Assembly (NCBI GenBank): GCA_965224085.1
Contig: CBDCYI010000011.1
Coordinates: 480,001-544,000, forward strand
Source: Candidatus Marinacidobacterales bacterium
Lineage (GTDB): Bacteria > Acidobacteriota > Vicinamibacteria > Marinacidobacterales > SMYC01
Reading direction: 5' to 3'
Length of the DNA stretch: 64,000 bases
Both the position numbers and the translations under genes were made by a program. This document shows, piece after piece, positions 2,888-9,473 of the stretch. Positions within the stretch are counted from its first letter, which is position 1, and each line of letters opens with the position of its first letter. The notes beneath the pieces were generated by a model. The model had not been told where the DNA came from, ran no database searches, and saw nothing but the letters and a program-made list of their open reading frames with translations.

Positions 2888-3114
2888 TCGCAAGCGACAA
2901 AAGTCTCTTCCGGATGAGGTTTTGCTGGACCTCGCCCATCGCCACGACCGCGTACCGCGTCCGGACGGAGCTCGTCTCACCGAAGCGAAGCGGTGCGCCT
3001 CGAAAAACTTGTGCAGCGGAGGGAGGTTACGCCTCCAACGATCGTCTTAAATAGACGATGGCGGCGTTCAGGAGCTCGTTTCCCGTCACTCGTTCTCGTT
3101 TGCGCTCAAATGGC

Positions 3115-3137
3115 AATGCTGTATATAATACAGCATT
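3115..3137 (+). promoter_or_regulatory. TA promoter -10 box (TATAAT 3124-3129) inside a perfect 10-bp inverted repeat; likely antitoxin operator
   Basis: AATGCTGTAT-ATA-ATACAGCATT; TTGCGC at 3100-3105 is a candidate -35. Confidence 0.7.
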
Positions 3138-3153
3138 CAGGGAGCGCATCCAA

Positions 3154-3381
3154 ATGCCCGTGCGTTTAAACATTACGATGGATGCAGACTTGTACAAGCA
3201 ACTCAAGAGACGGCTTCCACCCAAGAAGATAAGCGCGTTCATCAACGATGCTGTTCGCGCACACCTTTATCCCGACACGCGAGCGCTCGACGCGGCGTAC
3301 AAAGCGGCAAGCGCCGAGCCCTGGCGGCGCCAATTTGCCGAGGAGTGGGAGATGACTGACGTCGAAGATTGGCCAGAGTGA
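3154..3381 (+). CDS. Ribbon-helix-helix antitoxin partner of a MazF/PemK toxin
   Basis: MPVRLNITMDADLY...ISAFINDAVRA RHH pattern; acidic tail; GTGA overlap with the toxin. Confidence 0.8.
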   Translation: MPVRLNITMDADLYKQLKRRLPPKKISAFINDAVRAHLYPDTRALDAAYKAASAEPWRRQFAEEWEMTDVEDWPE

Positions 3382-3716
3382 AGGCCGTACCGCGCCGCGG
3401 TGATGTGTACTGGGTGGCCCTTGACCCTACCCTAGGTACCGAAATTCAGAAGACGCGACCTGCTGTTGTGGTATCCAACGATTCGTGTAATGCGTACGGA
3501 TTCCGGGTGGTCGTATTGCCGGTGACAGGCAACGTTGACACAATCTACCCTGGCGAGGCCCTGGTCAAGATCCGCGGGAAACCCGCTCGCGCCCTCGGTG
3601 ACCAGGTCAGGTCCGTGGACAAGAAACGGCTCAGGACCCGCATCGGTAGACTAAACCAGACACAACTGCACGACATCGACAAGGCGTTGCGCATCACGCT
3701 GAGCCTCGCGCCGTAA
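3378..3716 (+). CDS. mazF: PemK/MazF family endoribonuclease toxin
   Basis: RRGDVYWVALDPTLGTEIQKTRPAVVVSND...DQVRSVDKKRL. Confidence 0.92.
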   Translation: MKAVPRRGDVYWVALDPTLGTEIQKTRPAVVVSNDSCNAYGFRVVVLPVTGNVDTIYPGEALVKIRGKPARALGDQVRSVDKKRLRTRIGRLNQTQLHDIDKALRITLSLAP

Positions 3717-3921: not shown

Positions 3922-3957
3922 TGGCTACGCCCGGGAGGATTCGAACCTCCATCGCGC
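3922..3957 (-). pseudogene. 3' half of a tRNA (possibly Gln)
   Basis: GGAGG-TTCGAAT-CCTCC T-arm followed by CGGGCGTAGCCA; the 5' half is deleted and it abuts the next tRNA's CCA. Confidence 0.65.
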
Positions 3958-4034
3958 TGGTAGCTCCGGGGAGATTCGAACTCCCACTGGACGGAATCTC
4001 GGTCCGTTGCCTCTGCCAGTTGGGCTACGGAGCT
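3958..4034 (-). tRNA. tRNA-Leu(GAG) with a short variable loop and C at position 33
   Basis: AGCTCCG/CGGAGCT acceptor stem, A73, CCA; anticodon arm ACGGA-CCGAGAT-TCCGT; variable loop CCAGT; GGGAG-TTCGAAT-CTCCC. Confidence 0.75.
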
Positions 4035-4044
4035 ACGTACTACT

Positions 4045-4120
4045 TGGAGCGACCGGCGGGAATCGAACCCGCACCCTAAGCTTGGAAGGCTCACATGCTG
4101 CCGTTGAACACCACGGTCGC
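4045..4120 (-). tRNA. tRNA-Gly(TCC)
   Basis: GCGACCG/CGGTCGC acceptor stem, U73, CCA; anticodon loop CTTCCAA; GCGGG-TTCGATT-CCCGC. Confidence 0.92.
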
Positions 4121-4138: not shown

Positions 4139-4182
4139 TTATCGAGGTCTTTAATGAGAATGACGAGTTGGTAAAGGGGATG

Positions 4183-6075
4183 GTCGAGTAGCTCAGCCAT
4201 TCGGCTTTCGCCCTCACAGATCCGAGCGTGCGGCTTTCCCGCACTCGGCTCCTCCTGAAGGTATACCCGAAATCAGACAAGGCAAGGTAGTCGGGACGGA
4301 GTGAGGTGAGGGACTGGTAGGGGAAAGCGCTCCAACAACAAGTGAAAACGAGGCCAGGTCATTCGGCGCTGACTCCGCCGACGAAGGCTTCGAAACCACA
4401 ACCGTGTCACCTCCTCAGAAAAGGATTGGAGAGAGCGGATGTTGCTGGGAAGTCCGTAGTACGCGTAGTGACCGCGCAGCACCTGGCAAAGCCAGCGATG
4501 CTGGACGGCGACTGGAGCATGCATACGTTGCTTCGCGCGAAGCCGTAGCGACTTGAGTTTGGCTCGTAGCCGCTGGCTCTGCGTTTTGCGCTTCACGACG
4601 AAACGGCCATCGCGGGTTCTCCCACAATAATGAGTGAAACCCAGGAAAGCGAACGTCGCACACCGCCGAAGGCCCCGTTGCTCGCGTGACAAGGAAGGTA
4701 ATCTCCCGAACTCGAGCAAACGGGTCTTGTTCTCGTGGAGCGCAAGCCCGAATCGGGCTAGTCGCTCCTTGAGCGCTCTCATCATCCTGCTGGCATCGGT
4801 CCGATGCTGGAAGCCCATGACGAAGTCGTCAGCGTATCGCACGATGGAAATACGGCCTTGTGCTTCGAGCCGGCGCCATCGATGAACCCACAGATCTAGA
4901 ACGTAGTGCAGAAAGACGTTAGCCAAGAGCGGGCTCACACCTGCCCCTTGCGGTGTCCCTTCAGTTGTCTCGCTCCACTCTCCTTTCTCCAGTACGCCGG
5001 CTCGCAACCACTGACGGATGAGTCGAAGGATGCGTTTGTCGGCGACCCGGTGCGAAAGCATCCGCATCAACCACTCGTGGTCCACCGAGTCGAAGAACTT
5101 GCGGATGTCCGCGTCGAGAACCCAGTTCACGCGTTGCGTCATGAGCGCGGTGTGGAGCGCGTGCAACGCTTGGTGCGGGCTCCGTCCGGGCCGAAACCCG
5201 TACGAGAACCCGATGAAATCGACTTCGTAGACGGCGCTCAAAACCTCGGCTACCGCTCCTTGGACAATCTTGTCTTCCAGTGCGGGGATGCCAAGAGGGC
5301 GCTTTCCGCCATCCGACTTAGGAATGTACACGCGCCGCACCGGTAGTGGTCGGTAGCGACCGGCGTGTACCCGCGAGCAAAGATCCTTGATGTTGCTCAC
5401 GAAGTTCTTCTCGTAATCGGCGACAGTCTCTCCGTCGACACCAGCGCTTGCGCTGCGCTTCAACCGACGAAACGCTCGATAGAGCGCTTCGTGATCCACG
5501 TGATGCAGCAACGCAGTGAACCGAGCCTTTCTATCTCGCTTCGCTGCTTCGTTCACCCGCGTGAGATTTGGCGGTAAGGCGACCCGGCGCTGTGTCCGGA
5601 CCTTAGCCCTCTCCCGTGGGTTCCCTCCAGGCCGATCCCTTCCCTCCACCATCTCGTTGCCTTCGATAGCTTCCTCAGTACTATGAATCGGTCCGACTTC
5701 CGGCCTCAGCTCAGCACCGCGCTTCGGTTTTCCCTTGCGCGACGCCCCCATCGGTGACCATTCCGATGGACCCGGCCGGACCTCCTGGGTCCCGAAAGGA
5801 ACTCTTCGTACGTGATGTGGTCCACGACCCCGGCGGAGCGTAACCATCTCGCGATAGCGATGGCCCACATGCTGCCTTCATTGACGGGAATCAACTCGGC
5901 CTTCCGCGATATTCAGCATTTCGAGGCTACATTCACACACCCTGCACGACCCCTGTCTACGCTTCGGACCCCGCGTTGCCACGACGCCCGCAAGACTCGG
6001 TCCCGACCTGTCCGCTACGACTTTTGGTCGGATTGGACTTCCACCCATAGGCTCCTTTCAGTTAGCCCAGCGCAC
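4183..6075 (-). mobile_element. Full-length group II intron (IIB-like), 1893 nt
   Basis: 5' GTGCG at 6075; domain V GAGCCGAGTGCGGGAAAGCCGCACGCTCGGATC; domain VI ending CTACTCGAC at 4183; EBS1 TCCCGT (5884-5889) in a hairpin; RT ORF inside. Confidence 0.92.
4273..5652 (-). CDS. ltrA: Group II intron reverse transcriptase/maturase, no endonuclease domain
   Basis: RPLGIP, SYGFRPGRS, DADIRKFFD, GTPQG, RYADD, FLGFTH, maturase LRGHYAYY; start codon uncertain. Confidence 0.93.
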   Translation of the reverse strand: MVEGRDRPGGNPRERAKVRTQRRVALPPNLTRVNEAAKRDRKARFTALLHHVDHEALYRAFRRLKRSASAGVDGETVADYEKNFVSNIKDLCSRVHAGRYRPLPVRRVYIPKSDGGKRPLGIPALEDKIVQGAVAEVLSAVYEVDFIGFSYGFRPGRSPHQALHALHTALMTQRVNWVLDADIRKFFDSVDHEWLMRMLSHRVADKRILRLIRQWLRAGVLEKGEWSETTEGTPQGAGVSPLLANVFLHYVLDLWVHRWRRLEAQGRISIVRYADDFVMGFQHRTDASRMMRALKERLARFGLALHENKTRLLEFGRLPSLSREQRGLRRCATFAFLGFTHYCGRTRDGRFVVKRKTQSQRLRAKLKSLRLRAKQRMHAPVAVQHRWLCQVLRGHYAYYGLPSNIRSLQSFSEEVTRLWFRSLRRRSQRRMTWPRFHLLLERFPLPVPHLTPSRLPCLV

Positions 6076-6174
6076 TCCCGCCGGATGTTGAATTTGGGGT
6101 AGCGGCGGCTCCTTGGCCGGCCTAAGAATAGGTCTGCCAAACAACCGTCTCCAGAGGGGGACAAGGAGCCACCA

Positions 6175-6543
6175 ATGCCTAGGAAATCAAAGAAGCCAGT
6201 AAGAAAGCAAACGCACTCGCCTACGGGCAAGGTAGTTGGCCAAGCCGGTCAGATACTGCTACCGATGATAGCTGGGATCGCGGCCACGAAGGCGGATCTG
6301 ACGGAATGGGTGTACGAGCAAGGACTGACAGCTCTGCACCTACTGCTCAGAGAGGACGCCGAGGAGGTCGCGGGGCTCAAGGGCAAGCACGAGAAGGAGC
6401 GAACTCATAACCACTGGGGGAGCACGAACGGAGAGCTGAGCTTCGGTGGTCGTCGCATCCAAGTGTCGCGACCTCGAGTGCGTTCGAAGTCTGGTGAGGA
6501 GGCGTCGCTTCCACACTTCGAAGCCTTCCGCGAAGAAGACCCG
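6175..6543 (+). pseudogene. N-terminal 123 codons of an IS256-family transposase, fused in frame to the truncated intron RT
   Basis: EEVAGLKGKH...HWGSTNGELSFGGRRIQVSRPRVRSKSGEEASLPHFEAF; DDE core absent; AAGGAG RBS. Confidence 0.8.
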
Positions 6544-7611
6544 GCCGAGGTTTTGAGCGCCGTCTACGAAGTCGATTTCATCGGGTTCTCGTACGGGTTT
6601 CGGCCCGGACGGAGCCCGCACCAAGCGTTGCACGCGCTCCACACCGCGCTCATGACGCAACGCGTGAACTGGGTTCTCGACGCGGACATCCGCAAGTTCT
6701 TCGACTCGGTGGACCACGAGTGGTTGATGCGGATGCTTTCGCACCGGGTCGCCGACAAACGCATCCTTCGACTCATCCGTCAGTGGTTGCGAGCCGGCGT
6801 ACTGGAGAAAGGAGAGTGGAGCGAGACAACTGAAGGGACACCGCAAGGGGCAGGTGTGAGCCCGCTCTTGGCTAACGTCTTTCTGCACTACGTTCTAGAT
6901 CTGTGGGTTCATCGATGGCGCCGGCTCGAAGCACAAGGCCGTATTTCCATCGTGCGATACGCTGACGACTTCGTCATGGGCTTCCAGCATCGGACCGATG
7001 CCAGCAGGATGATGAGAGCGCTCAAGGAGCGACTAGCCCGATTCGGGCTTGCGCTCCACGAGAACAAGACCCGTTTGCTCGAGTTCGGGAGATTACCTTC
7101 CTTGTCACGCGAGCAACGGGGCCTTCGGCGGTGTGCGACGTTCGCTTTCCTGGGTTTCACTCATTATTGTGGGAGAACCCGCGATGGCCGTTTCGTCGTG
7201 AAGCGCAAAACGCAGAGCCAGCGGCTACGAGCCAAACTCAAGTCGCTACGGCTTCGCGCGAATCAACGTATGCATGCTCCAGTCGCCGTCCAGCATCGCT
7301 GGCTTTGCCAGGTGCTGCGCGGTCACTACGCGTACTACGGACTTCCCAGCAACATCCGCTCTCTCCAATCCTTTTCTGAGGAGGTGACACGGTTGTGGTT
7401 TCGAAGCCTTCGTCGGCGGAGTCAGCGCCGAATGACCTGGCCTCGTTTTCACTTGTTGTTGGAGCGCTTTCCCCTACCAGTCCCTCACCTCACTCCGTCC
7501 CGACTACCTTGCCTTGTCTGATTTCGGGTATACCTTCAGGAGGAGCCGAGTGCGGGAAAGCCGCACGCTCGGATCTGTGAGGGCGAAAGCCGAATGGCTG
7601 AGCTACTCGAC
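6544..7611 (+). mobile_element. 5'-truncated second copy of the group II intron (RT C-terminal part, domains V-VI)
   Basis: 6544-7618 is the reverse complement of 4176-5250 (1075 bp) with at least one substitution (RAKQ vs RANQ). Confidence 0.92.
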
Positions 7612-7699
7612 CATCCCCCCCCACCTTCCGCACCCGATCAATGCTATTCTCAATTTATCTTTCATCCGCGACTACAGTTGCTAGTGCTAGCCGCCCACA

Positions 7700-8772
7700 C
7701 TCAGGCTGCGATCCATCGCGGCGCCGTCGAACGCGCTTACGGTGGGGCGAATCACGCGGGAAATCCCTTCAAGTGCCAGCGCCTGCTCGAAGACTCGGTC
7801 GAGAGATTCAGATGCTTTTTCACATCGAACTGCTCGGTCAGCTCGACGACGACGGACAAGTAGTGAGGGTGCAGATCGACTTTCTCGAGAAGACCCGCCT
7901 GTCCGAATAAAGGGTAGACGTTGACGGAATGCTCGATCGTATGGAACCCGTGGTCGGAGACGACGACGAACGTCGTTTTGTTCGCGATCCCTGCGTTCGC
8001 TCGCGCGGCGAATCAGTCCGACGTTGTAGTCCGCTGCGGTAAAGGCGGCCTTCGCGAGATAGTGATCCGGCCCATATTCGTGTTGATAGCGGTCCATCGC
8101 CGGCAAGCGGATCGCGAGCAACTGAGGTTTGTATTTCTCGATGACGTGAACTGCAGCCCGCGTCAAGATTCGATCCGACGTGACCTGTAGCGGAAGGTCG
8201 TCGTACCAATCAAAGAAGAGGTCGATGGGCACTTCGCTCTCGCGAAGCTCCTCGAGAAAGACGGGGTCCGCGGCACGGATGTCCGCTTTCATTTCCCCGG
8301 TGAGCACGAAGGGAATGCTGTGGCCCACGGCCGGATCATCTCGATTCTCCGGCCAGAAGAAGGAGGCGGTGCGGTACCCCTTGCGCTTCGCTGCGTCGAA
8401 AAGGGTGGGCACCTTCACAGACTCGGAGCGTGGTTTGTTCGTGATCTGAAAATACTCTCCGGTCACACGGTTGCGCATGCGGTCGTCGATGACTCCGTGA
8501 ACGCGCGGGGGAACTCCGGTCGGAATCGAAGTATGCGCGGGATGATGCGTGCTGGGAAAAACGGCGTGACTGCTCTTGGCCCACGCGCCGGCTCGCGCGA
8601 CCGCCCTCAGGTTGGGTAGCTCGAGCTCATCGTCTTCCAGGCGGGAGGCTGTGAATCCGTCCAGGGAAATCAAAACGACATACGCATCCTCGGAGGATTG
8701 CGGCGGCTCGGCTTCGCTAGGAATCGAGATGACAAAAGCCAAGGTGGCGAACACTGAAATTGGACGGCGCAT
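7700..8772 (-). pseudogene. Alkaline phosphatase/nucleotide pyrophosphatase family protein, frameshifted and truncated
   Basis: VVLISLDGF, FPSTHHPAHTSIPTGVPPRVHGV, DRYQHEYGP; frameshift near 7990, with the VVSDHGF motif in another frame. Confidence 0.8.
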
Positions 8773-8909
8773 GGCCCCTCCTCGTGCTGGCACGTTCGTA
8801 TCGCATGCGAGACGTGCGTGTCAAGGACTCGGGCGTGGCGCTTGTGTCCGCGCGTGCCCTGTGCGAGCGCGTTCATTCGTACCGCCTACTAGGATAGACT
8901 TCGCGCGTT

Positions 8910-9459
8910 ATGAGAAACGCGATAGCTATCGTTTCAGGCGTCGTGCTGATCGCGAGCCTGCTCGTTGGATGCGAGAGCGGCGCCGTGACCAACAACGAGT
9001 CCTCACGTCTTTCCTTTGCGATTTCCTTTCCCGAAGAGCTCAGCCCGGAGGCTCTCGATGGCCGCGTGCTGCTGGTGATCTAGGACCGGCGTCATCGATA
9101 GGGAAGTGGCCGACTACATGCGCGAGAACTACGACCTGCGCTACATTCTCGAGCGAGACTGGGCGAGCTTGGGACCGAAGCTCGTCGGCAAGATCCACAT
9201 CTATGTCGGGGAGATGGACAACTCCTATCTCAACAACGCCGTCTACCTCATGGAAGAGTTTCTCGAGAACACGACGGATCCCTACTACGCGGGCGTGGTG
9301 GACTACGAGCCGCGCGCCGGCCATTGCTGGAACGGCGACCACACGAGACCGAACGGGCTTTCGCACCTCAGATACAACGTGATGTACATTCCGAGAATCC
9401 TGGAGCGCATCCGTGAGTCCGCGCCGCCGGGAGCGGATCTGACCAGCTGGCGGTACTAG
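8910..9459 (+). pseudogene. Internally deleted secreted esterase-like (alpha/beta hydrolase) gene
   Basis: Signal peptide plus SFPEELSPEALDGRVLLVI, joined at about 9085 to the C-terminus ENYDLRYILERDWASLGPKLVGKIHIYVGEMD. Confidence 0.65.
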
Positions 9460-9473
9460 CAGGCTCCTCGGAT

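What the first reader, a model, noticed from the sequence alone, without database searches (positions are those of the whole stretch)
4176..7618. Group II intron that homes into the terminal inverted repeats of an IS256 element, occupying both ends
Seen: removing the intron (4183-6075, minus strand) rejoins GGGGATG with TCCCGCCGGATGTTGAATTT, an IS256-type left IR about 80 nt before the transposase start. The second intron copy ends ...CTACTCGAC followed by CATCCCC, the mirror-image position in the right IR. Both introns point outward and sit 7 nt from the IS tip. The intron carries a matching guide: EBS1 UCCCGU (5884-5889, in a TTGA/TCAA hairpin) pairs with the 5' exon GCGGGA with one wobble, and a candidate EBS2 AUGCUGAAU (5911-5919) pairs 8/9 with AUUCAACAU at -18 to -10. 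Established: introns such as RmInt1 target IS elements, typically inside the transposase gene. Inference: this lineage is specialised on the IR itself, giving two targets per IS copy and probably immobilising it by separating the cleavage tip from the binding site, so it is a parasite of a transposon. I do not recall this targeting mode being described but cannot exclude it.
Basis: partly seen in the sequence, partly recalled or inferred. Interest (0 to 1): 0.85.

Follow-up and report, generated by a model that had tools for sequence, protein, structure and literature searches.

The report
Intron that homes into IS256 ends
A self-splicing mobile intron in this bacterium inserts specifically into both end-repeats of an IS256-type jumping gene, seven bases from each tip; the pattern is real and widespread, but this way of targeting was already described for another intron in 2014.

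Summary
Window 4183-6075 (minus strand) is a complete 1893-nt group II intron. It lies in the left inverted repeat (IR) of a 1460-bp IS256-family element, 7 nt from the tip. The second copy (6544-7611) is only intron nt 826-1893. It is fused without homology to IS nt 468 (transposase codon 123), so the window holds a dead IS remnant with no target-site duplication.

Elsewhere in the same genome, 3 of 4 full IS copies carry outward-pointing introns in both IRs. All 11 intron 5' ends and all 12 intron 3' ends have the same IR flanks. EBS1 covaries with IBS1 across relatives. A supported clade of related introns lies next to IS256-family transposases in other phyla.

The intron is not class D. 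It looks like class E (IIE), but that placement is not proven.

The claim that this mode is undescribed is wrong. RmInt2 of Sinorhizobium meliloti uses both IRs of ISRm17 (PMC4615759). I file this as a new member of a known kind. Extras are nested twintrons and an IS copy-number contrast with intron-free relatives. That the intron immobilises the IS is inferred, not shown.

The parts
4176..4182 (+). 7-nt outer tip of the IS256-family left IR (GGGGATG), cut off from the rest of the IR by the intron
   Evidence: Intron-free IS copies in relatives have this heptamer directly on the core (12 of 13 left ends). The inverted repeat in the window ends exactly here.
4183..6075 (-). Full-length group II intron, 1893 nt (5' GUGCG ... 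CUCGAC 3'), pointing out of the IS
   Evidence: Rfam hits. 100% identical to three other uninterrupted copies and to the pieces of the nested copies in the genome.
4183..4253 (-). Domains V and VI. The DV loop is 5 nt (GAAAG), and DVI has a bulged nucleotide near the 3' end.
   Evidence: RF00029 at 53.2 bits against a gathering score of 40. Fold of the identical copy at 7541-7611.
4276..5652 (-). Intron-encoded reverse transcriptase/maturase, 459 aa from the ATG at intron nt 424. YADD is present and there is no endonuclease domain.
   Evidence: Pfam RVT_1 only. Translation and start codon. 48-77% identical to 79 loci in other genomes.
5679..5680 (-). Site (intron nt 396/397, 27 nt before the RT start) where a second 2033-nt group II intron is nested in 6 other copies. 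It is empty here.
   Evidence: Public contigs also show both forms at this place (loose ends at 5679/5680).
5818..6041 (-). Ribozyme domains I-IV core (Rfam group-II-D1D4-6)
   Evidence: 140.9 bits against a gathering score of 49, E = 3.9e-41.
5884..5889 (-). EBS1 (UCCCGU in the RNA). Its core UCCCG pairs with IBS1 CGGGA at -5 to -1.
   Evidence: Lies in the hairpin loop in the Rfam alignment. IBS1 core is invariant in 11 of 11 targets. Covaries in relatives.
5911..5919 (-). EBS2 (AUGCUGAAU). It pairs with IBS2, whose core UUCAACA lies at -17 to -11.
   Evidence: Position in the Rfam alignment. IBS2 core is invariant in 11 of 11 targets. One compensatory change against the L066 group.
6076..6543 (+). 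IS256-family core nt 1-468: inner left IR, leader, and transposase codons 1-123 (from 6175)
   Evidence: 99.8% identical to nt 1-468 of the full IS. The full-length transposase matches PF00872 Transposase_mut at 4.5e-42.
6544..7611 (+). 5'-truncated second intron copy (intron nt 826-1893), pointing outward
   Evidence: One mismatch to all other copies, at 7263.
7612..7618 (+). 7-nt tip of the right IR (CATCCCC)
   Evidence: 12 of 12 intron 3' ends in the genome are followed by this heptamer. Contigs of three public runs join it to the right flank, with 27 nt on the arm side.
6175..7521 (+). Chimeric open frame of 448 aa: transposase residues 1-123 fused in frame to the C-terminal 325 residues of the RT. 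Probably a by-product of the deletion.
   Evidence: ORF list. RVT_1 on residues 127-329.

Best explanation
An endonuclease-less, IIB-type group II intron (Rfam D1D4-6; probably bacterial class E) retrohomes into a 24-25-nt site formed by either terminal inverted repeat of a 1460-bp IS256-family element. It always lies 7 nt inside the IS tip, with its 5' end toward the IS interior.

Recognition is by RNA-DNA pairing. EBS1 UCCCG pairs with IBS1 CGGGA at -5 to -1. EBS2 pairs with UUCAACA at -17 to -11. A C is always present at +1.

Because the protein has no endonuclease domain, cDNA synthesis is presumably primed at replication forks, as in RmInt1. This step is inferred.

The intron has recently swept this genome. 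About 15 insertions are 99.8-100% identical, and 7 of the 8 ends of the four full IS copies are occupied. In 6 copies a second intron is nested 27 nt before the RT start (a twintron).

An IR works as DNA, so splicing cannot repair it. An occupied end has its cleavage tip 1.9-3.9 kb from the inner IR. The IS copy is therefore most likely unable to transpose, although its transposase ORF stays intact (inferred).

The window copy is a later derivative. It has a complete intron in the left IR. A 1.8-kb loss (IS nt 469-1446 plus intron nt 1-825) joins the transposase gene to a truncated right-end intron. The loss came either from a deletion or from abortive, 5'-truncated retrohoming with target loss.
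For: Shown:
- Intron identity.
- 11 of 11 intron 5' junctions and 12 of 12 intron 3' junctions in the genome have the IR flanks.
- There are four full IS copies with intact 431-aa transposase ORFs, matching PF00872 at 4.5e-42.
- Three of the four have introns in both IRs. Two of these have 8-bp duplications outside the tips: CTCACGGA on contig C11 and CCCGGCAG on C4.
- The four copies carry different mixes of plain and nested introns at their ends, so the ends were invaded separately.
- The variable target positions (-10, -8, -6) lie outside the paired cores.
- EBS1/IBS1 covaries in relatives. Examples are GCCAAA/UUUGGC, UCGCGA/UCGCGA, GCUGGU/ACCGGC, UUCAAA/UUUGAA, UCAGAU/AUCUGA and CCCGCA/UGCGGG.
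- A 23-row clade (SH-aLRT 98) holds the window intron. Within it, 10 loci have a Mutator-family transposase abutting the 5' exon, in both orientations.
- The partner IR lies 1369-1425 nt away in 6 loci. One of these partners carries an inverted intron.
- Intron-free IS copies in relatives have the rejoined IR and TSDs.
- Only 7 nt of homology exist on the tip side, so homologous recombination cannot spread the intron between IS copies (sequence argument).
Against: - No splicing or mobility assay exists. No RNA data were obtained.
- The maturase domain is not recognised by Pfam GIIM in this protein.
- Immobilisation of the IS is untested. The copy-number contrast is a single comparison among kin.
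- One intron (C11:193429) sits at an IR-like 27-nt site with no IS behind it. An IS is therefore not strictly required.
- In the relatives' clade, several loci have the target motif but no detectable transposase. L143 scores 16.4 bits, below the cutoff, and L087 has none. Many contigs are too short to judge.
- The window's internal junction 6543/6544 is not independently verified.
Confidence: 0.85

Rival explanations
1. The second intron copy in the window is an assembly artefact (a fold-back or chimeric join), not a real truncated insertion.
For: - The arms are a 1075-nt near-perfect inverted repeat.
- No target-site duplication flanks the structure.
- The junction 40-mer occurs once in the genome.
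- No contig bridging 6543/6544 was seen in 4 public runs. In run X20 the left flank goes on differently from 4139.
Against: - The arm ends exactly at the biologically meaningful IS tip.
- The arms are separated by 1293 nt, not abutted.
- The join has 0 nt of shared sequence, and repeat-driven misassembly needs shared sequence.
- The truncated copy carries a private base at 7263.
- The right flank is joined to tip plus intron end in contigs of 3 runs from 3 studies, although with only 27 nt on the arm side.
- Other truncated copies with other breakpoints (649, 780, 653, 785, 1569) exist in the genome.
- Even if this rival were true, the main finding stands on the three double-occupied loci elsewhere in the genome.
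Confidence: 0.1
2. The intron-IS-intron composite moves as one unit by transposition using the outer 7-nt tips. The two ends were then not invaded independently.
For: 8-bp duplications lie outside the tips of the composites on C11 and C4. This is what unit transposition would also give.
Against: - The four full IS copies carry four different end configurations: nested/nested, nested/plain, plain/nested and nested/empty.
- IS cores differ by up to 0.9%, while the introns are 99.9-100% identical. The introns are therefore younger than the IS copies.
- Single-end occupancy is the rule in Bradyrhizobium relatives.
- A 7-nt tip without the inner IR is unlikely to bind transposase. This point rests on general knowledge of DDE transposases and was not tested.
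Confidence: 0.05
3. The association is a passive by-product. The intron recognises a short motif that happens to occur in these IRs, with no specialisation on IS ends.
For: - One copy sits at a 27-nt IR-like site without an IS.
- Group II introns can retarget through a few EBS changes (general knowledge; PMC4615759, passages read).
Against: - Relatives whose EBS1/EBS2 have diverged still sit 7 nt from the tip of their own, different IS256-family elements: tips G[GA]TCGTG, GGTGCCG and GGGGATG. The position is kept while the sequence changes.
- The labels cluster on the tree. All five target-type groups need 5 changes against a shuffled mean of 12.0, and 0 of 200 shuffles were as low. Near-copies inflate this measure.
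Confidence: 0.08

Closest known systems
RmInt2 of Sinorhizobium meliloti GR4, in the inverted repeats of ISRm17 (Martinez-Rodriguez et al. 2014, PMC4615759; review PMC5894124)
   Same: - A group II intron without an endonuclease domain whose natural copies all lie in the left and right IRs of an IS. This gives two targets per IS on opposite strands.
- Recognition is by EBS/IBS pairing, with a minimal target of -16 to +7.
- The authors proposed that it controls IS spread.
I read passages of the 2014 paper and section 5 of the review.
   Different: - RmInt2 is class D. The window intron lacks the class D C-tail motif. Its RT is 35% identical to a class D intron of S. meliloti pSymA, whose ribozyme hits Rfam D1D4-2 rather than D1D4-6.
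- ISRm17 is listed as ISNCY family in PMC10194956. The IS here is IS256 family.
- RmInt2's homing was shown experimentally; here nothing was.
- Figure S1 of that paper, which shows the positions in ISRm17, is a supplement I could not see. I do not know RmInt2's distance from the IS tip.
RmInt1 in ISRm2011-2 (IS630 family)
   Same: An endonuclease-less IIB intron that homes into an IS and is thought to limit IS spread. It uses replication-fork priming (PMC5894124 section 5; PMC4615759 introduction).
   Different: According to that review the RmInt1 target lies 'within' the IS. The passages I read do not place it in the IRs. It is class D.
Bacterial class E / IIE group II introns (Toro et al. 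2002, recalled and not read; Nagy et al. 2013, PMC3753933, passages read)
   Same: - 5-nt DV loop.
- No En domain.
- Ribozyme of 513 nt without the ORF, inside the 450-700-nt range given for IIE/IIF.
- IIB-like EBS1 and EBS2.
- S. meliloti, which the review says carries class C, D, E and G introns, holds a 67-69% identical RT on its plasmids.
   Different: The passages I read of the IIE papers do not mention IS IR targets.
Nested group II introns (twintrons) of bacteria and Methanosarcina (review PMC4424553, passages read)
   Same: One intron homes site-specifically into another. The inner intron must presumably splice first.
   Different: Here the outer intron is itself a parasite of an IS. 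This gives three layers: an intron in an intron in an IS.
ISLdr1 of Legionella drancourtii (ISKra4 group, Mutator superfamily), listed as encoding a group II intron RT (PMC3942029, one passage read)
   Same: A group II intron RT inside a Mutator-superfamily IS.
   Different: It is described there as a passenger gene. No IR position is reported in the passage read.

Membership tests
Mobile group II intron | Domains I-IV ribozyme core | tested here: met
   RF02005 at 140.9 bits against a gathering score of 49, full model 1-225.
Mobile group II intron | Domain V/VI with a bulged branch nucleotide; 5' GUGYG | tested here: met
   RF00029 at 53.2 bits against 40. The fold shows the DV hairpin and a bulge in DVI. 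The intron begins GTGCG.
Mobile group II intron | Intron-encoded RT in domain IV with YADD | tested here: met
   RVT_1 at 6e-39. YADD is seen in the translation.
Mobile group II intron | Maturase (X) domain | tested here: inconclusive
   Pfam GIIM gave no hit at E <= 0.001 on this protein. The inner intron's protein does hit GIIM. The C-terminal ~120 aa align with relatives.
Mobile group II intron | Splicing and retrohoming activity | not testable with these tools
   Indirect evidence only: about 15 near-identical insertions at one target sequence.
Bacterial class D (RmInt1/RmInt2) | C-terminal motif LX3AX3PXLF[V/A]HW (from PMC4615759) | tested here: not met
   Absent from the window RT. Present in the positive control from S. 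meliloti pSymA, locus L173.
Bacterial class D (RmInt1/RmInt2) | Same ribozyme type and close RT | tested here: not met
   The control hits RF01999 (D1D4-2); the window and its relatives hit RF02005 (D1D4-6). RT identity to the control is 35%.
Bacterial class E/F (IIE/IIF) | 5-nt DV loop, small IIB-like ribozyme, no En domain | tested here: met
   GAAAG loop. 1893 nt minus the 1380-nt ORF leaves 513 nt. Pfam finds RVT_1 only.
Bacterial class E/F (IIE/IIF) | Phylogenetic placement with named class E introns; alpha' in a terminal loop of DId3 | not tested
   No labelled reference sequences were at hand.
IS256 family insertion sequence | Mutator-type DDE transposase | tested here: met
   PF00872 at 4.5e-42, residues 52-388.
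IS256 family insertion sequence | About 1.3-1.5 kb, imperfect terminal IRs, 8-9-bp target duplication (family figures recalled from ISfinder, not from a call) | tested here: met
   1446-nt core plus 2 x 7 nt gives 1460 bp. IRL and IRR are alike over about 30 nt. 8-bp TSDs in 2 own copies and in at least 7 of 13 relatives' copies.
IR-homing group II intron (behaviour of RmInt2) | Copies lie in the IS terminal repeats, and both IRL and IRR are used | tested here: met
   11 of 11 5' junctions and 12 of 12 3' junctions. 7 of 8 ends of full IS copies are occupied. Both orientations occur in relatives.
IR-homing group II intron (behaviour of RmInt2) | Experimental retrohoming into the IR target | not testable with these tools
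   -

The most novel reading that the evidence does not exclude
A whole clade of endonuclease-less, class-E-like group II introns is an obligate hyperparasite of IS256-family elements. It is found in Bradyrhizobium, Sinorhizobium and MAGs labelled Binatia, Armatimonadetes, Gemmatimonadota and others.

The clade keeps one position, 7 nt inside either IR tip, while its EBS1/EBS2 guides track the diverging IR sequences. Because an IR acts as DNA, splicing cannot undo the damage, so the intron sterilises IS copies.

In this genome the intron occupies 7 of 8 ends, and the IS stands at 4 full copies. Three related genomes, in which no full-length copy of this intron was found, have at least 18 full copies each. 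This would be a convergent, clade-wide version of what is known only from the single pair RmInt2/ISRm17.
Probability: 0.4. Interest if true: 0.55.

Novelty: new member of a known kind. Interest (0 to 1): 0.4.

Why it matters
The finding shows that homing into IS terminal repeats is not peculiar to RmInt2. It has arisen in a second intron class against a second IS family, and it is kept across a clade found in several phyla.

It offers a natural three-layer system: an intron inside an intron inside an IS. The genome is nearly saturated, which makes it a good place to test whether introns restrain transposons.

For genome annotation, IS256 elements that appear to 'carry an RT' are better read as IR-invaded elements. 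Long perfect inverted intron pairs are also likely hot spots for rearrangement and misassembly.

Tried and rejected
- Public-run check of the window's odd junction. Only Logan contigs were available. None covered 6546-7427, because contigs that fit two places were laid on the first arm. None bridged 6543/6544. This gives no verdict either way.
- Microhomology at the junction: none, 0 nt.
- Reciprocal products of the window deletion (an IS piece starting at nt 469, or an intron piece ending near nt 825): not found among the 13 IS HSPs and 21 intron HSPs.
- Partners for the window flanks at other IS ends: none.
- Flanks of the other truncated copies. Some adjoin repeated DNA and some unique DNA. 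I did not resolve how they arose.
- My own HMM of the transposase was contaminated by antisense ORFs. I use it only as a lead. The counts rest on tblastn and Pfam.
- Introns of congeners at about 68% nucleotide identity turned out to be distant, at 46-57% RT identity, and were dropped.
- Class assignment from the literature. PMC2525955 is not held. The class E paper of 2002 is not in the library. The assignment therefore stays as 'probably'.
- Literature searches for an IS256-IR-homing intron found none. This covers only the held library.
- The tree used 51 of the 79 loci: all 30 with at least 60% identity and 21 of the 49 more distant ones picked by hand. It also used 2 plasmid loci and the window. 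28 loci were left out.
- Strand bias relative to replication was not examined.


Full report
THE WINDOW

The window is G000:C11:480001-544000 of a 6.87-Mb genome in 12 contigs.

Positions 4183-6075 on the minus strand are a complete group II intron of 1893 nt:
- Rfam group-II-D1D4-6 scores 140.9 bits over the whole model.
- Intron_gpII (domains V/VI) scores 53.2 bits and ends exactly at 4183.
- The intron encodes a 459-aa reverse transcriptase that starts at intron nt 424 and has YADD.
- Pfam finds RVT_1 only, with no endonuclease domain.

Left of the intron lies GGGGATG (4176-4182). Right of it lies TCCCGCCGGATGTTGAATTT..., followed 100 nt later by the ATG of a transposase.

The inverted repeat runs 4176-5250 against 6544-7618, 1075 nt, with one mismatch at 4531/7263. 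The plus-strand copy is therefore only intron nt 826-1893 plus the 7-nt tip.

Its 5' end is joined, with no shared base, to nt 468 of the IS core, which is codon 123 of the transposase. This creates by chance a 448-aa chimeric ORF. The inner right IR is absent, and the flanks are not a target duplication. The window therefore holds a dead remnant of an IS.

THE SAME GENOME

BLAST of the intron against the whole genome gave 21 pieces, all 99.8-100% identical. They make up about 15 insertions:
- 4 plain full copies;
- 4 full copies and 2 truncated copies carrying a nested 2033-nt second intron at nt 396/397;
- 4 5'-truncated copies, two of them with identical flanks;
- 1 3'-truncated copy.

All 11 intron 5' ends are preceded by TTCAACA[T/G]C[C/G]G[G/C/A]CGGGA. 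All 12 intron 3' ends are followed by CATCCCC.

The IS core is 1446 nt, so the IS is 1460 bp with its two 7-nt tips. There are four full copies, each with an intact 431-aa ORF. The ORF matches Pfam Transposase_mut at 4.5e-42.
- Three copies (C11:1218036, C4:256434, C5:2150184) have outward-pointing introns in both IRs.
- The fourth (C4:893895) has one occupied end and one free end.
- So 7 of 8 ends are occupied.

Outside the tips, the C11 and C4 composites are flanked by 8-bp duplications, CTCACGGA and CCCGGCAG. This fixes the IS boundary and the 7-nt distance.

The four copies carry four different combinations of plain, nested and empty ends. The IS cores differ by up to 0.9% while the introns are 99.9-100% identical. 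The ends were therefore invaded one by one, after the IS copies had diverged. Only 7 nt of homology lie on the tip side, so homologous recombination cannot explain the spread.

RELATED GENOMES

The same IS (94-97% identity) is abundant in relatives. Among the rows listed, G002, G021 and G023 each have 18 full-length copies. That is the scoring cap per genome, so the true number is at least 18.

In the 13 full copies I examined, the tips sit directly on the core. GGGGATG is at the left end in 12 of 13, and CATCCCC is at the right end in 11 of 13. At least 7 of the 13 have clear 8-bp duplications.

The intron itself was found at full length only in G000, among 41 genomes searched. G002 has a 534-nt fragment, again followed by CATCCCC. 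That search scored only 7 candidates per genome.

RELATED INTRONS

A protein-guided scan gave 79 loci at 48-77% RT identity. I examined 32 loci with at least 60% identity: 30 of the 79, plus 2 plasmid loci. I could place 27 5' junctions and 27 3' junctions.

The closest loci fall into target types that all share one layout:
- a 3' exon that is constant for 7 nt and then variable;
- TC(C/G)C... immediately inside the insertion site;
- a GT(T/G)GAA- or GTGGTGTA-like block about 12-20 nt further in.

A Mutator-family transposase abuts the 5' exon in 10 loci:
- tblastn found it in 8 of the 79 loci.
- Pfam confirmed 8 of the 10 ORFs I submitted. L143 was below the cutoff and L087 gave nothing.
- The gene runs toward the intron in some loci and away from it in others, so both IRR and IRL are used.

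The partner IR lies 1369-1425 nt upstream in 6 loci. It is free in five. In L066 it is occupied by an inverted intron, which Rfam confirmed.

On a tree of 54 RTs, the window intron and these types form a 23-row set with SH-aLRT 98.

EBS1 changes together with IBS1 across these and neighbouring introns, with six different pairings. EBS2/IBS2 is weaker: 5 of 6 to 7 of 8 pairs, with one compensatory change.

CLASS

The intron is not class D:
- The class D C-tail motif is absent. It is present in a control intron from S. meliloti pSymA.
- That control hits Rfam D1D4-2, not D1D4-6.
- The control's RT is 35% identical to the window RT.

The following features fit the IIE/IIF traits listed by Nagy et al. 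2013 (PMC3753933, passages read):
- a 5-nt DV loop;
- a 513-nt ribozyme;
- no En domain.

A 67-69% identical RT occurs on S. meliloti plasmids. S. meliloti is said to carry class C, D, E and G introns (PMC5894124, section 5). Class E is my best guess, but I did not test it against named references.

WHAT IS KNOWN

Martinez-Rodriguez et al. 2014 (PMC4615759; passages read) report several points:
- All copies of the class D intron RmInt2 lie within the inverted repeats of ISRm17.
- The IRs give two insertion sites per IS on opposite replication strands.
- RmInt2 retrohomes into that target in plasmid assays, with a minimal target of -16 to +7.
- This doubles the number of targets and may control IS mobility.

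The 2018 review repeats this. ISRm17 is listed as ISNCY family (PMC10194956).

The targeting mode is therefore in print. Four searches of the held library found no report for IS256 IRs or for this intron type.

MECHANISM AND ITS LIMITS

Shown: the anatomy, the target consensus, the covariation, independent invasion of the ends, and the clade-wide association.

Inferred:
- retrohoming by reverse splicing, with fork-primed cDNA synthesis, by analogy with RmInt1 and RmInt2;
- loss of IS mobility, because the cleavage tip is moved 1.9-3.9 kb from the inner IR and splicing cannot mend a DNA site;
- the origin of the window remnant, by deletion or by abortive 5'-truncated homing.

The contrast of 4 IS copies here against at least 18 in three related genomes fits restraint of the IS. 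However, it is a single observation among kin.

VERDICT

The window copy is a rearranged remnant, and the mode of targeting is already known from another intron class and IS family. I file it as a new member of a known kind. A clade-level pattern and a three-layer nesting are worth a short follow-up.

Noticed in passing
G000 C11:1219878-1221910 and five other places; free copy C9:853583-855615 (locus L148 1084-3116): A second group II intron of 2033 nt, with RVT_1 and GIIM domains, is nested at nt 396/397 of the IS-homing intron in 6 copies, all 100% identical. Its only other copy lies just downstream of an Rfam D1D4-4 hit, so it may sit inside a third, degenerate intron. The two targets share GTCGG...TAGT^A. 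It looks like an intron that homes into other introns' domain IV.
   Followed up: partly
The genome search, genomes G002, G003, G010, G012, G021, G023: The 1460-bp IS is 97% identical in genomes of another family (f2: G021, G023) and in other genera of the window's family (G010, G012). It is only 94-95% identical in congeners (G002, G003). This suggests recent horizontal spread of the IS.
   Followed up: no
window 6105-6545: In public runs X19 and X23, contigs of an IS variant have summed word depths of thousands, against about 17-20 for the unique flanks and 300-450 for the intron. Loose ends at 6076 show free GGGGATG-TCCC ends with flanks that are not in G000. The IS is therefore far more abundant in those samples than this genome alone explains.
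   Followed up: no
G000 C11:193429-195321 (locus L147): One full intron sits 38 nt downstream of a 5S rRNA gene. Its site keeps only the first 27 nt of the left IR, and an ADP-ribosylglycohydrolase-like ORF lies behind it instead of a transposase. It is either a solo IR remnant or an ectopic site, and it shows that about -20 to +7 is enough.
   Followed up: partly
window 3058-3716: A MazF/PemK-type toxin ORF (3369-3716, E = 5.4e-26) follows and overlaps a 107-aa ORF with no Pfam hit (3058-3381). This is probably a type II toxin-antitoxin pair.
   Followed up: no
window 3958-4120: tRNA-Leu(GAG) and tRNA-Gly(UCC) lie on the minus strand, just left of the IS tip. T-arm-like repeats further left (3931-3951, about 3818) suggest more tRNA genes or remnants. 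In run X20 the flank continues differently from 4139.
   Followed up: no
window 7687-9460: The phosphodiesterase-family ORF on the minus strand matches only positions 1-205 of the 342-position Pfam profile. Several short overlapping ORFs follow it. The neighbourhood looks frameshifted or pseudogenised.
   Followed up: no
G000 C9:649630-650042: A second IS256-family element, 72-73% identical to the IS core, has a free end GGGGATGTCCCAGCCCATGTTGAA. Its IBS1 differs from the target (CTGGGA instead of CCGGGA/GCGGGA) and it carries no intron.
   Followed up: no
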